Shown here in pieces: positions 3,510 to 35,787 of a stretch of 64,000 bases of DNA. Positions within the stretch are counted from its first letter, which is position 1. Every line of letters begins with the position of its first letter. The translations under genes were made by a program, and so were the position numbers. A model generated the notes under the pieces. That model saw nothing but the letters and a program-made list of their open reading frames with translations. It had not been told where the DNA came from and did no database searches. The DNA is from Glaucostegus cemiculus (lineage: Eukaryota), in the NCBI GenBank assembly GCA_976551045.1, contig CDPCPM010000793.1:1-64000 (forward strand), in the 5' to 3' direction.

Positions 3510-3760
3510 ACATACAGAAGAATTAAAGGGTTTGGAAGAAAAGATTTTCTACCCAGAGGGTGGCTGGAATTTGGAAAGCATTGCCGAAGTTGGTGGAGAC
3601 AAGTATTTTCACAACATTTAAGAAGTATCTGGAGAAGCATGTGAATCACAAAGGCATTGAAGGTAATGGACCAAGTGCCTGTAACTGGGATTAGTATAGA
3701 AGGGTGCACAATGGTTGATATGAACATGATGGACTGAAGGGCCTGTTATTATGAAATCCT
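3510..3760 (+). mobile_element. CR1-like LINE 3' end fragment
   Basis: FLPRG..WKALP-type ORF end and tail GGACTGAAGGGCCTGTT typical of chondrichthyan CR1/HER1. Confidence 0.65.
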
Positions 3761-4830: not shown

Positions 4831-6489
4831 AGCCATGTGTTATACATTTCAAGTTTAATTGGAAATTACAGACTCAATGTGCACTTTTATTTACCAGTAT
4901 GTACTGATCAACCTGAGGAGACTGCTGGTAATTTTCATGATTAATTGGTTGGAATGGAGCCATACCTGTACGGAGCCACAACATCATTTGTAGCAATTCC
5001 CCATTCAAGGACAGTCTGTACCATGGTTCACCAATGGATCTTGTGGTGAGTCAGTAATCCATTCCTGACCCACAGATTCATCAGCATGGAGATGATTCCA
5101 TGCAAGAGAGTTGCATACTAGCCCTTCTGAATTATTTAGCCAGGCAATGTTGAGTTATCAGATGCTGCTATGCTCTCTTAGTACTTCCCTTCAAAGCAGC
5201 AGGCTTCAGCTTTGAGATCAGTTGGTTGCCAGTTCACAATATTTTCTTCAGATATGTCTTTGTAGCAATTTTTTTTGAACACCACAGGATTTCTGGCATG
5301 CCTGGTATGAGCCACACATTTTGCGATATACATCTAATATTGGGAGCAGCAGAACACAGCTTGGAGTGGGAATCGACTGCGTTGTGTACCACCTACTTAC
5401 TTACACCCTGGAGCCAGGAGAGAGCCTTATGCCTACAGGCTTTCATTGTGATATCCAAGGTAACTTTGAACTGCTGCTAAGTATAAAAGTCTTACAAGCC
5501 ATGTTTAGCTTTTATTCTTTAGCTTAATTAAGATTAATCTATAACAACTGGAAGCAACTGGGAAACTTCACCCTCACTAACAAATCTGGTGGAAATACAC
5601 CTTTAATATTGGGTTGAATTTAGCATGGTGCAGAATGAATTGGAGCCATTAAAATGTGAAACTGGGAGAGATAATTATTGAAATGTTATGATGCTTAATT
5701 GAGTGCTACATAATGAATTGCACAAAGCACAATTGCATGAGTGAATCAGTTGTACAACATCTGAAAAACTAGTCCCTACTGTGGCAAGTTGTTATTAATA
5801 GCTATTAACCAAGACCATTATTTACATTACATTGTAACCACATCTCATCTTGTCAACTATTTAGATTTTATTTTTAAAAGTGGATATTGGAGACAAAGCC
5901 TAACAATAAACTATCTTCATATGTTAAATTTGTAATTGATTGGGAATCATGCTTGGAGCTCTGATGGAGTAATAATTGTGATCTATTCTGCCCAATGAAC
6001 CTACTAAGACTGCTTCTATTATCACCAACAAATTACCATCAAAGACTTCTTTCAACAAAAAGATTCGAGGTTGGATCATACGTGACCTGGCCCACACCTC
6101 ACATTCACTGCCTGTGTGACTCCCACACTGACACTCACCTTTCATTGCCCTGCAGATTGGAGGCTTTGCCACAGCAGCCACCCCAGGGAGTGGAGCAGCA
6201 TGGTTGGAGCAGCAGCTCGGCCTCAGGTGGCTGAAACCCAGGCCTAGTCCCAGATCCCCTAATGGTCTTTGAACAGCATAGGTTGTGAAAGGCCTTTACA
6301 CTTATCTCCAAGTGTCCCTGATATTGTGTGAGAGCCACCAGGCATGGACTGTGTAAAGCCATAGGGCAGACATGAAGCAAATCCAGCTCACTGACTGAGC
6401 CTGACTGAGTGCTGGTATCTGACCAGAACACATTTTGTATTGTTGTGCTGTAATGCATCCGTATGGAAGTCAGGAATGCACTGGTCATA

Positions 6490-20084: not shown

Positions 20085-20413
20085 ACATAGAGACATGCAA
20101 CACAGGAACAGGCCCTTCAGGCCACCAAGTCTGCGCCAACCATCAAGCATGCACTTACACCAATCCTGCAGGAATGCCATTTCATTCTCCACACATTCCC
20201 ATCAACTATCCAGAGATTCTACCATTCATCTATGCACCAGGTGCAATTTAGTTACCAATTAGCCTACTTTGGTGGGAATACAGAGCACCCAGAGTAAACC
20301 CACACAGTCACAGAGTGAATGTACAAACTCCACACAGACATCACTGGCAGTCAGGATTAAACCCAGGTCACTGGAACTGTGAGACAGCAGCTCCACTGCC
20401 TACTGTGCTGCCC
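20085..20413 (-). mobile_element. V-SINE (HE1-like), apparently inserted in the DeuSINE head
   Basis: GAGCACCCAGAGTAAACCCACACAGTCACAG...ACAAACTCCACACAGACA; tRNA-like head at the right end. Confidence 0.8.
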
Positions 20414-20464
20414 TAGAACGCAAGGTGCTGTGGTCTGAAATGAAGCTAATTGTAATGTTTACAT

Positions 20465-20550
20465 TAAAATAAAAAAAACCCAAAAAGACCATATACATTT
20501 AAAGTGCTGGAAAATCCAACATTTTATTTACTACATTTTGTGACTACATA
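20465..20550 (-). terminator. Distal cleavage/polyadenylation site
   Basis: Minus-strand AATAAA at 20523-20528, two upstream TGTA elements (20532, 20545) and a downstream GU/U-rich element GGTCTTTTTGGGTTTTTTTT (~20471-20490). Confidence 0.6.
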
Positions 20551-23500
20551 AACGCTGAAACATTTTAACACTGAAAAAGCATGATGACATCATCACTTGC
20601 TTTTTTGCTTAGCAAACACAGCAGATGATATTGCACGGCATATAGTGAGAACATTAGCAAAGCTTCAAAACTAAATTAAATTTTCTTAACGCAGTACAGG
20701 AAAGATACTTAGAAACAAACCAGAATAATGCCTATTGCATTACACTCGCAGCTAGCACAAAAATACATAAGAAGCGCTTGACTAAGAGAAAGATTGACAA
20801 AATATCAGCAATAAACTGTAATCATATACAAGAATCACTTAGTTGGAAATGCAGATGCAAACGCATAAACTACTACCGCTTTCTAATTTGCAAAATGTCA
20901 GCAAATTGTCTTATATCAAAACCTTTTTTTTTAAAGCTTTTCTGATTTCATTGCTATGGAAGAACTTCCTCTGGCTCTTGGAAGAGATACTATTAACTAT
21001 GCACCCTTCACCTGTTGATTGTCTTAGGCGCTCTCTTTTAGGTATTAACTCCAAGGCAATCTAACTTGAAAGCGGAAGTGCAAAAATGCTGTCCAATTAA
21101 CTTTTCTCGAATCAAGGAACAATAAAGCTGAAAGTGTGCATTATTGATGACAAGAAGCACGGTTGAATTTCTTGGACAAAAGAGGGAAGAGGTTGTGTAA
21201 ATCCAGTCTGCAATGCACCACCAACGTTTGCTGTTACTTGTTGGTGTTAACTGTTAAATTATTAGTCGCAATATGTTATTACTACTGAGAAATTACTAAT
21301 GCAACTCCATCAGTTGCTTTGTATATTTGATCATTAAACTCGCGTTGTAACATATGTTGGTTACATCCTGTGGTTTACTTCATTCCAACGATGTACCTGG
21401 CAATATCTTACAGCTTAGTTTATTAGTGCAGTTTAAAATTGCGCTGTGTATTGCACGGTTGGAATTTATCTACATAAAAAATCACCAACCCCACACATTT
21501 TCAGTTTATTATTAGTCTAATGTCTAGGAAAATTCAGCGGACTAAAGGTAACATCCAACCATCTTGATTGATATAATTGTCAAACTGAAGGAGGTTAGTT
21601 AAATGTTCCCGATTAATCAGTGGCGCTTATTTGCATGATCTCAGACTCCAGAGTCCAACATCACTGTTTATTATTAGTTAAATAAACATGTTTCTGGAAA
21701 ACAAGGACTATCAGACAGAAGTAATTGGTTTAAAAGATAGATAAATACAGGTTAAAATGCTGGTAAGTGCGTCAAATACAACTTTATTAAATAATATAAA
21801 TCACGGTTTCAAAAATGTACGTCAGTACCTCTAAGGTCGGATATTACCTTTCTATATTATATCCGTAACTTCGATGGGACCGCCACCGTTCCAGCAACGC
21901 TGCCCCGCAGGCAAATACGCTTCAGGAACCCTTGGCCATTTGGGGAAATGTTGTCCGGCTGAACTATCTAAGTCACGATCGTGTCCCCGAAAACTGAACT
22001 TAAAGTGGGATAATGGTTTCCAGCATCAGGTTAGGTTGCCCGTAAAGTTCTTCGCCTTCTGCTTTCTATGCCCGTGCGAATGACAGATTAAAACAATGCT
22101 TAGACTTCACAAATCCCAGTGCTTCAAACATTAAACAAATTTTAAAATTCTTTGGAATTGTGGTCTTCCTCGAGGGAAGACCCTTCCTTAGTATATATTT
22201 TTAAAACACAAAAAGAGACTTTAAACAAATCTTACAAGCCTTCTAAGTGACGAAGTGATAACTTCAGTGATAATTGAACCTTATTTTTTTTGGCATTTTA
22301 ATTCGTTGGGATCTGGCAGTGTTTGTAACATTTGAAGTGTCCGCAAAGAGATTTCAGACGATATCAGACTCTGCACCTCTACAGCATTTTTTTCCCCACC
22401 AGCTTTCTGGGAACACGAGAACAGAACTCTTTACCTGCAGACTGTATCAGAAAGCTTTGGTTGCTTTAGGAACCTACTATGTACACTATTTTAAAGATGT
22501 ACAGATGCATAAATTAATACAAAAATCAAAACAAATCTTCACATAAGATAAAATGAATTAAAACAAATCACAGCACACGAACATTTTTGCAAGAAATACT
22601 TACACGCATCTTAGCAGAGAATGGCTTACCCTGTGAAAAGACTATTTTTTAATATAACACAAAAAAAGTTCAATTAACAGAAAAGTTAGGTTTCCCCTCA
22701 GAACCAACAGCAACCAACCCTGCACTACCACCTCGTCTTCAAAATACTTCTTCCTCGAGCCCATCAGAGTTCTGCCAAATCTACAAAATAAATAATTATA
22801 AAGCTTTGAAGTAACGTTAACAATTATCAAACTATTAAGTTCTGCCTTATCACATAGACTCTCTATACAACATAACCCTAAAGATTTATTACTATGAGGT
22901 ATCTTGAGAAATTGATAAGGAATGCACGGCCTGCGTTGTGTGAATACTCTAGGACGCAAAAAAGAGCTTTGGTAGTCAGCAAAAAGTGGAAATATCCTTT
23001 GGTATCAAAGAAAGTTTCATTGCATGGTTGCATGCAAAGCACCACGGTGAAAAGTTATTCCTTTTTTTTTAAAGTAGTGGCCTTTCTAGAGGCTGAGGTA
23101 TTCAAGAGTAAGGTGAGAAGAGGTCAACAGCGGTTTAACACTTTGGTTCAAGCAAGGCACTCGTCCTATGATTTTACAAATTTTGCAATATGTTTGCCTA
23201 TAGCTTTTATGAAGAAAACTTCACACTGAGTGACAGTTGAGGGTTTAAGGAAAGAACGCCGAGTAGCCCACTCACGAAGGCCGTGCAAGAAAAATCTTTG
23301 GTATTCTTTGGTATCATCAATGTGATTAAAATCACGAATGGAAATCGAGTGAGGTAGCGTCTTTGGTTCACACTATAAATAGTAGATCTTTACACATTTT
23401 TACACGTGGAAGCAGCTATTTTACCTTTGCTTCTTTGTCTTAATAATAGTAAATGATTACCAAATGTATCGTAAAGCTAACCACACCACAAGAAACACAA

Positions 23501-26500
23501 GGCCAGAGTATTGTTAAAATCCGGATTATTATCCATCACAATGGCCTCCTGCGTATGAACGCACCTGGCTAAATGTCACCTTTGAAAATCACTAGTTCAT
23601 TCTCTTTGTGCGAGGAGCATCCTTTAACAAAAATAAAGCTAGACAGTTTCCTTTGGTCATGTTGGGAGTGAAAGGGAGGCGTGGATGGGAAGGACGTTTA
23701 TAAAATTCAAGTTTATAGCGGGAATATAACATTGGTAAAAAGTCACTCAAGGCGTGTAAAATTACGAAAACAATACCTGACAGAAATATATATTTCATAT
23801 CACCGTGACTTCAAGAATGAGTGACTGGTGCACAACGAGCAGTCAGAGCAATGACTCCAAGTCAGACTACATTTGAAACCCTAAATATTTTCACAATTGC
23901 GATGTCCATTTTTAAACTCAATTATTCCCACAAATAAACACATATCTTTTCAGAAGAAATTCCCCTGGAATTTATCTAGCAGTTTCAAAAGGGTAGGTGT
24001 TTGGTACGAAGAGAAGTCTTTGCTGAGCGGAAATACTTTGTGGCATTTTACTTCCAGGCAACGAGAGAAAGGCGAATTTCTTACATAATGCAACACACCC
24101 ACCCCTCCACACCTCGCTCTGGCTGTGGCCGCATTATATAACTTTTTAATTATATCTGTATATCGTGTGGTCCGTATTCGACAGCGACTCGGTAAAACGT
24201 TGTTTTAAAACTGCCAAGCAAAATAAACCTTAAAATGAGTATAAAATATTGGGTTTCGCTTGCATATTAGTTGGACTTGAGGTAAAGAAGTTACTTTGAT
24301 GGAGCTTGACTTGAAACGTTCGTTGTTACAATGAATATTCAATCCTCGTCATTTATTTTTATCAGAAATGTCATGAAAGGGTCGCACCATCGCGAGTAGT
24401 AGGTTTGTTAAGTCCAATTAAACTTCAAGAGGCCGGTCCTCTTCGAGATCTTTGACTTTTTTTTGGAGCATATGTACTTCCTACCCTATGGACAGGTGTT
24501 CAATCATAAGACATGATACTATGTGTGTCGTGTGTCGTGTCAGTGACCCCATGAGATTGCTCCCCAAGTATCTTGTTGATACCCTGACCCACTTCATCTG
24601 ATGGCATCGGTATGTGATAAAGTATCCCGAAGACGGATACTAATACAATTGATCGGTGTAAAAACAAAATGGACTAGTTTTGCATTGTTGCTCGCCGACA
24701 AGTGCAATGTTCCTGAATAAAGAGTTATCTTTGGTTCTTTAGCAGAATTTTTTAAAGCACAAAGGGTAATATGTAACTGCAACTGGGTGACTGAAATGTT
24801 GCATCCTGTCAAGAATAAGTCATATCTTGACTGAAACCTGAAACATACTGTTCAGTAGCCCAGATCTGTGTTCTACAGAGTTCCATCTCTGTTGTGTTTC
24901 ACTATGGGAAACTAACCTGAATCATATAACAACTTCTGGTGTTAACAGCACCGAGCAGTAAAGTGCCTCCCTTTTCATTGGTGCATCCAACCAGATGGCT
25001 TTACTGTCAGCATTTGGTCATTGTAACTTAGGAAAAACAAAGCTTCTACAGTACTGACTTCCCAGGGTTATACACTGTATCTTCCCCGGTCCATGCAGAC
25101 CATTGTGTGCGGATTTAGTTCCATAAGGGACAAGAATCTAAACTTGCTTTGAAACTTGTTATGTTGACCAATAATTTACATAATTTTGTATACTCCATAA
25201 TGTATATTTAATGAAGGGGAGTTTGTATTTTTTTTAGTTGTTCGTTTTAGAGTTGATTGACCAATAGATTAAACAAAACATATAAATTATTATTTTTCTA
25301 ACATATAAGGTGGGGTAACTATTTTTTTTAAAGAATTGTGTTATAATATTCATTTTGTAGGCCACAGGGTTTTAGAATATACATTGCATGGTACTAAGGG
25401 AGTTTAATAAATTTACCCTGAAGCATATAGGGCGACTCGCAGTGGTCTGCGGCATTCTTTCATAGGGAATTCTTGTGTTAAACCTAAGTGAATTTGATAT
25501 TGCTGTTACTTGTGTAAGTACAGGCTGGTACACCTGACAGATGTGTCGGGAAAAGCCTGCGGCATTGATAACTGATTTGTTGTATCGCTGTGTTCAGTGG
25601 AGTATTCATTCAATTAGCATATTTGACAATGCTATCCCCAAATGGAAGCATCTTTTGTTGCCTCCTTGCCTCTGCGGCAATGTGGATAGCAAGGAACAGG
25701 GATAAAGTGAGTGATTCCCATCTGATTCTACGGTAACTGCCACCTTTCTGTAACGTATAAAGCAAAGTTTTGCCAATAAAATACCATATCATTATTTTGG
25801 TGTGCAAAATATATTCGAATAGAAAATAGTAAGTGGTGTATTTCATCGTAGATGAACGAAGCTCCCAGTACAACTAATATTTGTGCTTCTGGCGAAATCT
25901 CCCTGTCATTTATCCCGCTCTTTGTTATCCAACAGAGTTTTCATCTACAATACTGGGGTTGGTGTTATAGAATGGGTTTTTTTTTGGTCATTAGCTGTTG
26001 CATTTCCTCGGCCTGTGATACAAAGAGAATGCACTAGTGTGAGGTGACAGAACAGCTCTCACAGTGTTGAACTGTGCCCAGAACCGGGCCTTTCGCGTTC
26101 AACCAGCATAGAGCTCGAATTCAATCACATTCCAAATGTACACAGAACGACTCCACAATTGTAAGGGTCGTGCCTGAGCACAACCCACAGACCAGCCCCT
26201 TGCAAAGTTTTCTGGCCACTGGCACATACACGGGTATTTCTACAACATACACCTTGGTTGGTATATCCGAGGAAGTGAAATGGGTCAATGTTTGAAATAA
26301 AGTTCTTTTCATGAAGATGCTCCCAACGACTTTACAGCCACACACACTGAACGATGTTGGATGATGAAGGTGTACGGCCAGCGGCTTCATTCTTTTTTTT
26401 TGCAAAAGTCATAATAAAGTGTTGTAGAACGGAGTCCTAATGCAGGTCAATTAAGTCTTTGGTTTCGTTGGGCATATAAATATTATATTGTCTTTGAGTT

Positions 26501-26580
26501 CATTAATTAAACCTGCTGCCTGGAGGTCCTGGTCATTGATTTTAAAGCTATTCCACCGAGGTTTAGTCCGGGGTTCTCCT
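20500..26580 (-). other. ONECUT1: Predicted long (~6 kb) ONECUT1 3'UTR
   Basis: TE-free, AT-rich, with a dense strand-specific set of miRNA seed matches. Ends at a well-formed poly(A) signal. Internal AATAAA sites (e.g. 24352, 22885, 21783, 21505) could give shorter isoforms. Confidence 0.65.
22455..26463 (-). promoter_or_regulatory. Cluster of miR-9 and let-7 seed-match sites in the predicted 3'UTR
   Basis: miR-9 8mers (+strand TCTTTGGT) at 23295, 23305, 23360, 24728, 26456. 7mer-m8 (CTTTGGT) at 22455, 22967, 22997, 23141, 23651. let-7 8mer (TGAGGTAG) at 23350; 7mer-A1 (TGAGGTA) at 22895, 23094, 24278. Confidence 0.75.
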
Positions 26581-26873
26581 TCATGCTTTGGTACAAGTGC
26601 TTGATGAGGAAGATGAGTTGACTGGGTTGGAGGTGCCGTCATCCTGCCACTTATCCAAACTCCTCCGACGTGCGTTCATAAAGAAATTGCTGACGGTGCT
26701 CAGCTCCAAGCCCAGCTGCTGGGAAATGGTTATTTGCAATTCTTTGGACGGACGCTTGTTTTCTTTGAATATTGCGTGTAGAGTTCTGCGCTGAACATCC
26801 GTGAACACCAGCCGAGGTTTCTTGGGCGCGGCGCCCCTCTCTTTACCATGCTCCTGCTCTTTTCTTTTGCACG
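26581..26873 (-). CDS. ONECUT1: ONECUT1/HNF6 coding exon 2 (linker plus divergent homeodomain)
   Basis: Acceptor tctttgtcttgcAG|CG completes the phase-1 Ala codon (G+CG). Encodes ACKRKEQEHGK...KKPRLVFTDVQRRTLHAIFKENKRPSKELQITISQQLGLELSTVSNFFMNARRRSLDKW...SSSTCTKA, stop TGA at 26581-26583. 1108+293=1401 nt = 466 aa plus stop. Confidence 0.97.
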
Positions 26874-34679: not shown

Positions 34680-35787
34680 CTGCCAAGCGTAGGGCCGACA
34701 TTCGCTGGAACTCGGGCTCCTGCAGCCACTTCCACATGCGCCTGAAGGTCTCCCGGCCCGACTTGAGCTTACTCCAAGGTTTCGGGTTCCTCAGTAAGTC
34801 GGACAGGGTGCCCTGCGAGCGGCACAGCACCCGTTGCGCGAAGATCGCTTGCGGGATGCTGTAACGCTTGAGCTCGGTGGTGATCCTCTGCGCTACCTCC
34901 TTGGTGTTGATCTCCTCCAGCTGGCTCGACCCGCCGCCGCCTCCTCCTCCGCCGCCGCCACCTCCTCCTCCTCCGCCGCCGCCTGCCTGCGACCCGTTGG
35001 AGGAAGGGGGCGGCTGCTCGCCCCTGGCCGAGCCCAGGACCTGCCCGTGGCCCTGTGCGTGCGGGTGCACGTGGGGGTGGTGGTGCAGACCGTTGATGGG
35101 CACCATGCCCACCGAGGGAGGGCTGAGCCCCCGGCTGAGGTGCTGCTCCGCTCGGCCTAACATGCCCGGGTGGCCCTCGAAGCCGTTCGGGGTCAGCATC
35201 TTGTCAGCGGGCATGGGTCCAGCGTGCCCGTAAGGTGTCAGACCGTGCTGGGAGTTGTGGATGGTGCCCAGGCCGTTGGTGAGAGGGGAGCCGGAGAGCG
35301 GGGAGAGGCTCTGAGCCATGCCGCTCATATCCTTGTGATAGTGGCTGTACAGATTGTTCATTGAAGTCAAACCTCTCTCGTCCCTCATCAAGGTGAAGCT
35401 GCCGCTCACGTTGCCGGCCAGCCGCTGGTGGTGATGGTGGTGGTGGTGAGGGAACTTGTCGGACACGGTAGAGATGGGAGGCAGCGGCTGCAGAGGGGTC
35501 AGCGTGGTGTACGTACTGCTCATGCCCGGCACCGTCTCACAAGCCATGGTCATGGTCGGGTGCAGCGGGGCGGCCAGTGCGTGGTCCGGCGGCCGGTGGT
35601 AGTCTCCGGGACCGTCCAGGATCGAAGCCATGCTGGACACCATGGAGCGAGCGTGCACCGGCAGATTCCGATGGCCGATCGAGCGGCTGTGCGGGCTGGG
35701 GCTACTCAGCAGGTCGCCCGGCTGCACCGGTTCATGGGGCACCCCATGCAAATCGCCCAGGTTCTCCATCGTTAGCTGAGCATTCAT
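34680..35787 (-). CDS. ONECUT1: ONECUT1/HNF6 coding exon 1 (N-terminal region, STP box, poly-His, poly-Gly, CUT domain)
   Basis: Begins MNAQLTME in Kozak-like ccaaccATG. Contains TYTTLTPLQPLPPISTVSDKF, His7 and the CUT domain EEINTKEVAQRITTELKRYSIPQ...LSDLL...RMSALRLA. Ends at donor G|GTAAGC (intron starts 34679). RITTELK and the N-terminus match paralog 1 rather than ONECUT2/3. Confidence 0.97.
34930..34983 (-). repeat. Imperfect GGN triplet repeat encoding Gly18
   Basis: 54 nt of mixed GGC/GGA/GGT/GGG codons immediately before SSQLEEINTK. Confidence 0.95.

What the first reader, a model, noticed from the sequence alone, without database searches (positions are those of the whole stretch)
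22455..26463. Ten miR-9 seed sites in the predicted 3'UTR, eight within 1.2 kb
Seen: ACCAAAG(A) on the mRNA strand ten times (five 8mers, five 7mer-m8), including a tandem pair 10 nt apart (23295/23305). There is also a 7mer-A1 at 22149 and a site in the last codons (26586). A given 7-mer is expected less than once per 6 kb, and I noticed only about four in the same orientation in the other ~58 kb. Established: Onecut mRNAs, especially ONECUT2, are miR-9 targets. Inference: a heavily multiplexed miR-9 module 3-4 kb past the stop of ONECUT1 may be ancestral for jawed vertebrates. It is also independent evidence that the long UTR is real.
Basis: partly seen in the sequence, partly recalled or inferred. 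Interest (0 to 1): 0.7.

Follow-up and report, generated by a model that had tools for sequence, protein, structure and literature searches.

The report
Ancient helix-bridged miR-9 cluster, ONECUT1
The predicted untranslated tail of ONECUT1 in a cartilaginous fish (likely a ray) carries ten matches to the nerve-cell microRNA miR-9, a known kind of control, and its core, with let-7 and miR-124 matches and two arms predicted to pair, is shared with ONECUT2 and ONECUT3, so this likely silencing switch is older than the last common ancestor of jawed vertebrates.

Summary
The gene is ONECUT1. miR-9 repression of ONECUT1 through many 3'UTR sites is published for human and predicted for mouse (12 conserved sites), so the headline is known. 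Added here: the core (about 22870-23420) aligns in colinear islands with the 3' regions of ONECUT2 and ONECUT3 in the same genome and was found nowhere else. It keeps three miR-9, two let-7 and one miR-124 match in all three paralogues, so it predates their split. Two seedless conserved arms (23273-23287, 22923-22937) are complementary in all three (40 of 45 pair cells, one compensatory change; loops 335, 1724 and 1872 nt), with miR-9 and let-7 matches at fixed distances from the arms. This predicts an RNA bridge that gathers silencing complexes; I found no description of it in the held library. Not shown: that the region is transcribed here, cross-species conservation, or that the helix forms. 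The scan earlier noted a different helix (miR-218 cluster) in ONECUT2 of another genome.

The parts
34681..35787 (-). ONECUT1 exon 1 coding part (N-terminus and CUT domain), followed by a GT donor
26581..26873 (-). ONECUT1 exon 2 coding part (homeodomain, stop ends at 26581)
20500..26580 (-). Predicted 3'UTR; 3' end inferred only (AATAAA at 21788, 21672, 21510, 21424, 20528; interspersed repeats resume below about 20380)
   Evidence: no read evidence
26586..26592 (-). miR-9-5p 7mer-m8 in the last codons (Thr-Lys-Ala); same letters in ONECUT2 and ONECUT3; probably weak because inside the ORF (general knowledge)
26456..26463 (-). miR-9-5p 8mer, no aligned paralogue counterpart
24728..24735 (-). 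miR-9-5p 8mer, no aligned paralogue counterpart
23651..23657 (-). miR-9-5p 7mer-m8, no aligned paralogue counterpart
23278..23416 (-). Island 1: aligns with ONECUT2 (81%, E 5e-24 genome-wide) and ONECUT3 (85% over 78 columns, E 9e-13)
23360..23367 (-). miR-9-5p 8mer, invariant in three paralogues
23350..23357 (-). let-7 8mer 2 nt behind the miR-9 8mer, invariant in three paralogues
23295..23312 (-). Tandem miR-9-5p 8mers (10 nt apart here, 9 nt in ONECUT2, single site in ONECUT3)
23273..23287 (-). Arm A of the predicted long-range helix
23141..23188 (-). Island 2: miR-124-3p 7mer-m8 (23154-23160) next to miR-9-5p 7mer-m8 (23141-23147), both invariant in three paralogues
23094..23100 (-). let-7 7mer-A1; a match at a similar place in ONECUT2
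23016..23048 (-). Island 3, shared with ONECUT2 only (91%); holds TGGTGCT, recalled as the miR-29 seed match (not verified)
22967..23003 (-). Two miR-9-5p 7mer-m8 sites just 5' of arm B; each paralogue has such a pair (nearest 25-32 nt from the arm), flanks poorly alignable
22923..22937 (-). Arm B of the predicted long-range helix (start of island 4)
22895..22901 (-). let-7 7mer-A1, 21-24 nt 3' of arm B in all three paralogues
22455..22461 (-). miR-9-5p 7mer-m8, no aligned paralogue counterpart
22149..22155 (-). miR-9-5p 7mer-A1
20931..26549 (-). Seven scattered miR-9-3p seed matches (near 26543, 24753, 23634, 23472, 22799, 21123, 20932) and one more let-7 match (24279)

Best explanation
This is a sense-strand cluster of miR-9 seed matches in the predicted 3'UTR of ONECUT1 that likely lets miR-9, helped by let-7 and miR-124, switch the mRNA off as neurons mature; its core is shared with ONECUT2 and ONECUT3 and contains two conserved arms predicted to pair. 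Shown: the sites, their excess and strand bias, gene identity, the paralogue alignment and the complementarity of the arms. From literature: miR-9 represses human ONECUT1/2/3 UTR reporters, and Onecut mRNAs rise when miR-9-2 or Dgcr8 is lost in mouse. Inferred: the region is in this animal's mRNA; Argonaute complexes bind seed-only (1 of 11 sites has a match to miR-9 positions 13-16) and act together; the module was inherited from the single pre-duplication Onecut gene; the 15-bp helix closes a loop of 0.3-1.9 kb and brings two site clusters together for cooperative repression (least certain step, about 0.3; that the helix forms at all about 0.6).
For: Excess and strand bias. Same in paralogues, first 6.1 kb: miR-9-5p 7-8mers 11, 12 and 7 on the sense strand vs 0, 0 and 1 antisense, shuffle mean about 1, 0 of 300 shuffles each. 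10 of 11 six-base cores carry the m8 match and 6 of 11 the A1. let-7 4 vs 0.39 and miR-9-3p 7 vs 1.31 in ONECUT1, each 0 of 300. The core block has 4 matches in 2.85 Gb: window, its duplicate contig, ONECUT2, ONECUT3. Seed columns invariant 44 of 53 vs 83 of 172 other columns. Helix: arm B is the best partner of arm A within 8 kb in 3 of 3 paralogues; 2-of-3 majority gives a perfect 15-bp stem, 0 of 5000 shuffles (max 12); 40 of 45 cells pair, one C-G to U-A double change, one U-G; central pairs predicted at p about 1 in folds of 592, 2100 and 2200 nt; fixed site-to-arm distances. Literature.
Against: No transcript or read evidence for the UTR here, and no orthologue DNA from other species was compared. 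Five AATAAA/ATTAAA hexamers lie between the stop and the main cluster (25408, 25212, 24357, 24150) or inside it (22890), so short isoforms could drop most sites. Seeds are no more accessible than background (median 0.079 vs 0.078). miR-124 is not enriched by count (1 site, 162 of 300 shuffles). Helix: found post hoc; the first test, with shorter islands and self-pairing allowed, was not significant for ONECUT1 or ONECUT2 (284 and 253 of 1000); per paralogue the revised test gave 22, 0 and 218 of 1000; energy margins over the next partner are only 1.2-2.4 kcal/mol; in a 2.2-kb ONECUT1 fold the helix falls to p about 0.59; 5 cells are mismatches and there is only one compensatory event. The column test is partly circular because windows were anchored on seeds. 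PMC10914762 states that mouse OC1 lacks sites and did not respond; PMC10356556 reports full-length OC2 mRNA barely responds to miR-9 in prostate cells.
Confidence: 0.75

Rival explanations
1. A plain additive miR-9 target: many independent sites, with the complementary arms conserved for another reason (protein-binding motif) or pairing without effect on silencing.
For: Four of ten sites have no paralogue counterpart; weak covariation and competing partners for arm A; additive multi-site repression explains the published reporters.
Against: A perfect 15-bp complement in the majority of three ancient paralogues (0 of 5000 shuffles) and constant site-to-arm spacing despite loops of 335-1872 nt. 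This rival differs from the best explanation only in the helix step.
Confidence: 0.45
2. The structure shields sites or turns the UTR into a miR-9 sponge rather than a repressible target, as proposed for the human ONECUT2 UTR.
For: PMC10356556 passages: OC2 mRNA resists miR-9 and acts as a ceRNA; several seeds are partly paired in the 2.2-kb fold.
Against: Onecut1/2/3 are de-repressed in miR-9-2 and Dgcr8 mutants; island-1 miR-9 seeds lie outside the helix (unpaired 0.78-0.99 in the short fold; 0.33-0.91 in the long fold).
Confidence: 0.1
3. A DNA enhancer downstream of the gene with TCF/LEF- or SOX-like motifs and an inverted pair of factor sites; the miR-9 match is incidental.
For: The whole 21-50 kb region is CpG-rich and repeat-poor like regulatory DNA; paralogous conserved elements are often enhancers (PMC3531063 passages).
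Against: 30 sense vs 1 antisense miR-9-5p matches over three paralogues; ATCAAAG and AACAAAG (recalled TCF and SOX cores) occur once per strand; the conserved letters match four different miRNA arms read from this genome.
Confidence: 0.05
4. Chance, repeat expansion or recent gene conversion between paralogues.
For: One tandem pair looks like a local duplication; the site at 20267 abuts an interspersed repeat.
Against: p about 4e-10; no repeat hits in 20400-26570 other than the paralogue islands; islands are 77-96% identical with unalignable spacers of very different length.
Confidence: 0.02

Closest known systems
miR-9 repression of ONECUT1/2/3 mRNAs (PMC10914762; bioRxiv 10.64898/2026.10.02.755877; PMC13060328; Luxenhofer 2014 seen only as a citation)
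   Same: Same miRNA, same gene family, many 3'UTR seed sites (mouse OC1 12 conserved + 2; here 11). Human OC2 sites 7+8 with seeds 2 nt apart are the strongest PAR-CLIP sites; the ray ONECUT2 tandem pair has the same 2-nt gap and aligns to window 23295-23312 (homology to the human pair inferred from spacing; the figure's letters were not visible).
   Different: Those papers count sites gene by gene; the passages read do not report an alignable module shared by the three paralogues, adjacent let-7/miR-124 sites in it, or a long-range helix.
ONECUT2 3'UTR as structured ceRNA (PMC10356556)
   Same: Long conserved Onecut UTR, many miR-9 sites, structure proposed to matter.
   Different: Whole-UTR fold model and a shielding role, no specific conserved helix in the passages read; ONECUT2 only.
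RNA bridges / conserved complementary regions (PMC8052449; Lovci 2013 as cited there)
   Same: 10-15-bp conserved complementary arms up to kilobases apart that bring a regulatory site to its place of action.
   Different: Catalogued in introns for splicing, exons excluded; 0 mentions of ONECUT. Here in a predicted 3'UTR among miRNA sites and conserved between paralogues.
Cooperative miRNA sites beyond the 8-39 nt rule (PMC9875415 abstract; PMC10899768 passage)
   Same: Cooperativity of distant sites with a suggested role of target structure.
   Different: Shown for miR-21/miR-155 targets; no evolutionarily conserved helix named in what I read.
Paralogous conserved non-coding elements from vertebrate genome duplications (UCNEbase, PMC3531063)
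   Same: Non-coding islands kept by ancient paralogues of developmental transcription factors; an ONECUT2 cluster of 2 elements is listed.
   Different: Mostly taken as enhancers; this one reads as an RNA-level miRNA module. Whether the database lists this element as a paralogue was not checkable.

Membership tests
ONECUT1/HNF6 gene | One CUT domain plus divergent homeodomain, two coding exons | tested here: met
   (PF02376 + PF00046 in nearest relatives)
ONECUT1/HNF6 gene | Groups with ONECUT1 rather than ONECUT2/3 | tested here: met
   clade support 100/100, sister to Mobula HNF6; best PDB match HNF-6
Canonical miR-9-5p target UTR | 7-8mer seed matches on the mRNA strand above chance | tested here: met
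Canonical miR-9-5p target UTR | Cognate miRNA encoded in the genome | tested here: met
   three hairpins over the Rfam cut-off; also let-7 and mir-124
Canonical miR-9-5p target UTR | Sites conserved | tested here: met
   Between paralogues: 3 of 10 invariant in all three, 1 more with ONECUT2, 2 positionally; across species not tested
Canonical miR-9-5p target UTR | Sites lie in the mature mRNA | tested here: inconclusive
   No read evidence obtained; only polyadenylation hexamers and strand bias
Canonical miR-9-5p target UTR | Repression depends on the seeds | not testable with these tools
   Human UTR reporters respond to miR-9; seed mutants not seen in the passages read
Conserved long-range RNA helix (RNA bridge) | Complementary conserved arms of at least 10 nt | tested here: met
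Conserved long-range RNA helix (RNA bridge) | Covariation | tested here: inconclusive
   1 compensatory, 1 wobble, 5 mismatch cells of 45 in three sequences
Conserved long-range RNA helix (RNA bridge) | Pairing in cells and functional rescue by compensatory mutation | not testable with these tools
   needs probing and reporters
Paralogous element from vertebrate whole-genome duplication | Shared by paralogues older than jawed-vertebrate crown | tested here: met
   each clade holds cartilaginous and bony vertebrates
Paralogous element from vertebrate whole-genome duplication | Paralogues are 1R/2R ohnologues | not tested
   Recalled; no synteny test, no invertebrate outgroup, cyclostome rows unresolved

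The most novel reading that the evidence does not exclude
The ancestral vertebrate Onecut mRNA already carried a folded silencing hub: a 15-bp long-range helix that gathers five miR-9 and two let-7 sites from both ends of a variable loop, kept in ONECUT1, 2 and 3 since before jawed vertebrates, and needed for the sharp, cooperative miR-9/let-7 shut-off that ends the early-born-neuron window.
Probability: 0.3. Interest if true: 0.75.

Novelty: new variant of a known kind. Interest (0 to 1): 0.5.

Why it matters
Onecut factors mark the earliest-born neurons and are among the strongest miR-9 targets. A site arrangement kept by three ancient paralogues dates this miRNA-target link to before their duplication and picks out which of the dozen sites matter most. 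The predicted helix gives a precise two-arm mutate-and-rescue test of an open question, whether RNA structure makes distant miRNA sites cooperate, and warns that short-fragment reporters would miss it. Without the helix the finding is a well-known target seen in one more vertebrate.

Tried and rejected
Expression: the run search gave 'no RNA holder listed' on record, and no reads were laid, so the UTR extent stays open. CpG-rich, repeat-poor DNA as UTR evidence: rejected, it spans the whole locus. Site accessibility and 3' supplementary pairing: no signal. miR-124 enrichment by count: none. First helix test was ill-posed (self-palindromes counted, arms cut by island ends) and not significant in 2 of 3; both versions are reported. 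Module in the fourth Onecut gene (C541): no 7-8mer in the first 6.1 kb, best profile hit E 1.2 at one 8mer 8.5 kb out, 20 kb examined. In one search only exon 2 of C541 was used by an extraction error; it is a long, compositionally odd branch, unplaced. Timing relative to cyclostomes: unresolved. Luxenhofer 2014 not held. Literature searches for a paralogue-shared module or helix listed nothing describing it, judged from listings and the passages cited; subscription journals, figure contents and bioRxiv supplements were not visible. Earlier-findings look-ups by sequence, place and words were empty.
Full report
Observation. Five more lie elsewhere on that strand (reader: about four) and seven on the plus strand, none between 14751 and 41365. 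In 21400-26580 the shuffle mean is 0.55 and 0 of 2000 shuffles reach 10; it is the top 7-mer under 4 of 4 backgrounds and survives correction for all 16384 words; its 21 one-letter variants occur 0-2 times. Three mir-9 hairpins in the own genome carry the matching arm; mature 5' ends of all miRNAs used here are recalled, not measured.

Gene and organism. The minus-strand gene has a CUT exon (35787-34681) and a homeodomain exon ending at 26581. Exon 2 matches HNF-6 best in the PDB. The nearest protein is Mobula HNF6 at 95%, so the animal is likely a ray. In a tree of 4 own and 27 of the 120 listed proteins, chosen by name, the window gene falls in the ONECUT1 clade (100/100), C19 with teleost onecut2 (97/93), C15 with tetrapod ONECUT3 (97/99). 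A fourth, divergent gene (C541) is unplaced. C421 is a 99.7% duplicate of the window, with all sites and no substitution in the core.

Paralogue comparison. In the first 6.1 kb after the stop, miR-9-5p 7-8mers number 11 (ONECUT1), 12 (ONECUT2), 7 (ONECUT3) and 0 (C541) on the sense strand and 0, 0, 1, 1 antisense; 0 of 300 shuffles reach the first three. The flanks are homologous too: four colinear islands align with ONECUT2 (window 23416-23278, 23188-23141, 23048-23016, 22938-22869; 80-91%) and three with ONECUT3 (77-96%), separated by unalignable spacers of very different length. A genome search with the core found 4 places: window, duplicate, ONECUT2, ONECUT3 (the tool skips common words, so this is a lower bound). 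Invariant in all three are the miR-9 sites at 23360, 23305 and 23141, a let-7 8mer 2 nt behind the first, a miR-124 7mer-m8 beside the third, and a let-7 7mer-A1 at 22895. The second tandem site is shared with ONECUT2 only; sites 26456, 24728, 23651 and 22455 have no aligned counterpart. Seed columns are invariant in 44 of 53 cases against 83 of 172 others (p 6e-6, partly circular). let-7 (4 vs 0.39) and miR-9-3p (7 vs 1.31) matches are in excess in ONECUT1, both picked after seeing the 7-mer ranking; miR-124 is not. Since each paralogue clade holds cartilaginous and bony vertebrates, the shared core is older than their last common ancestor. If the three are 2R ohnologues (recalled, untested), any three of four span the first duplication, which would predict the module in lampreys and hagfish.

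The paired arms. Two conserved stretches without a known seed, 23287-23273 and 22937-22923, are reverse-complementary. Arm B is the best duplex partner of arm A within 8 kb in 3 of 3 paralogues (-27.9, -28.8, -21.0 kcal/mol; margins 1.2-2.4). The 2-of-3 majority forms a perfect 15-bp stem, against a maximum of 12 in 5000 shuffles; single paralogues give 10, 12 and 8 bp (22, 0 and 218 of 1000); 40 of 45 cells pair, with one C-G to U-A double change, one U-G and five mismatches; loops are 335, 1724 and 1872 nt; global folds put the central pairs near p 1. Against this: the idea is post hoc, an earlier looser test failed in 2 of 3, island and fold windows were chosen to hold both arms, and a 2.2-kb ONECUT1 fold with a competing partner gives about 0.59. 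The layout round the arms is constant: miR-9 7-11 nt before arm A, miR-9 25-32 nt before arm B, let-7 21-24 nt after arm B, let-7 50-66 nt before arm A.

Mechanism. Most likely miR-9-loaded Argonaute binds these seeds, with let-7 and miR-124 at neighbouring sites, and destabilises and silences the mRNA as these miRNAs rise during neurogenesis (established pathway; inferred for this animal). Pairing is seed-only at 10 of 11 sites and accessibility is average, so strength would come from number and spacing. Closing the helix would bring the island-1 cluster, the pair before arm B and the let-7 site after it within reach of one another whatever the loop length (inferred, about 0.3). Rivals are additive sites with an incidental helix, shielding or sponging, a DNA enhancer, and chance; the last two are strongly disfavoured by strand bias and statistics.

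What is known. PMC10914762 (passages and supplement search): all three human ONECUT UTRs have multiple 8mers and respond to miR-9 in reporters; OC2 sites 7+8, 2 nt apart, are the strongest PAR-CLIP sites; mouse OC1 said to lack sites. bioRxiv 10.64898/2026.10.02.755877 (passages and section 10): mouse OC1 has 12 conserved and 2 poorly conserved sites; miR-9 and let-7 set temporal identity; its supplements were closed and may list let-7 sites or species tables that bear on novelty. PMC13060328 (passages): Onecut1/2/3 rise in miR-9-2 knockout retina. PMC10356556 (passages): OC2 UTR as resistant sponge. PMC8052449 and PMC3531063 (passages), PMC10899768 (passage), PMC9875415 (abstract) and PMC11675081 (passages) give context. 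Searches listed no paper describing the shared module or helix; the library lacks most subscription journals.

Open. No read data were obtained, so the UTR is predicted; hexamers at 25408-24150 could give short isoforms without the cluster. The CpG-rich, repeat-poor character covers 21-50 kb and is not UTR evidence. No orthologue DNA from other species was compared.

Verdict. Real and far beyond chance; known as a miRNA-target pair; new, as far as searched, as a pre-duplication multi-miRNA module with a candidate RNA bridge. Interest 0.5.

Noticed in passing
G000 C421:763000-782209: A second contig holds a 99.7% identical copy of the locus (13 substitutions, 2 gaps in 6.1 kb): probably an unpurged haplotype.
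   Followed up: partly
window 21000-50000: CpG observed/expected 0.5-1.0 and almost no interspersed repeats over about 30 kb, against mostly 0.05-0.4 outside: looks like an unmethylated developmental-gene domain.
   Followed up: partly
G000 C15:9076629-9076705 and C15:13373436-13469657: One mir-9 hairpin lies on the same contig as ONECUT3, 4.3 Mb away; regulator and target may sit in the same duplicated chromosome segment.
   Followed up: no
G000 C541:155158-183002 (L008, L026): A fourth, fast-evolving Onecut gene with GC-rich, repeat-laden 3' region lacks the module within 20 kb; one 8mer 8.5 kb out with a weak (E 1.2) resemblance to the tandem-site context.
   Followed up: partly
window 26581-26595: The last codons (Thr-Lys-Ala-stop) use identical letters in ONECUT1, 2 and 3 and spell a miR-9 7mer-m8.
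   Followed up: partly
window 23322-23335: A small hairpin predicted between the let-7 site and the tandem miR-9 sites (p 0.89); the ONECUT3 counterpart is a longer palindrome, the ONECUT2 one is weaker.
   Followed up: partly
ONECUT2 UTR 5774-5837 (L010/L011) and ONECUT3 UTR 3619-3681 (L012): A further 64-nt island shared by ONECUT2 and ONECUT3 (81%, E 2e-10) with no BLAST match in the window.
   Followed up: no
window about 34930-34990: A long poly-glycine tract just before the CUT domain, absent from the ONECUT2 and ONECUT3 proteins of this genome.
   Followed up: no
literature: Two papers disagree on mouse Onecut1: no miR-9 sites versus 12 conserved sites, perhaps short versus long UTR annotation, which hints at alternative polyadenylation as a switch.
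   Followed up: no
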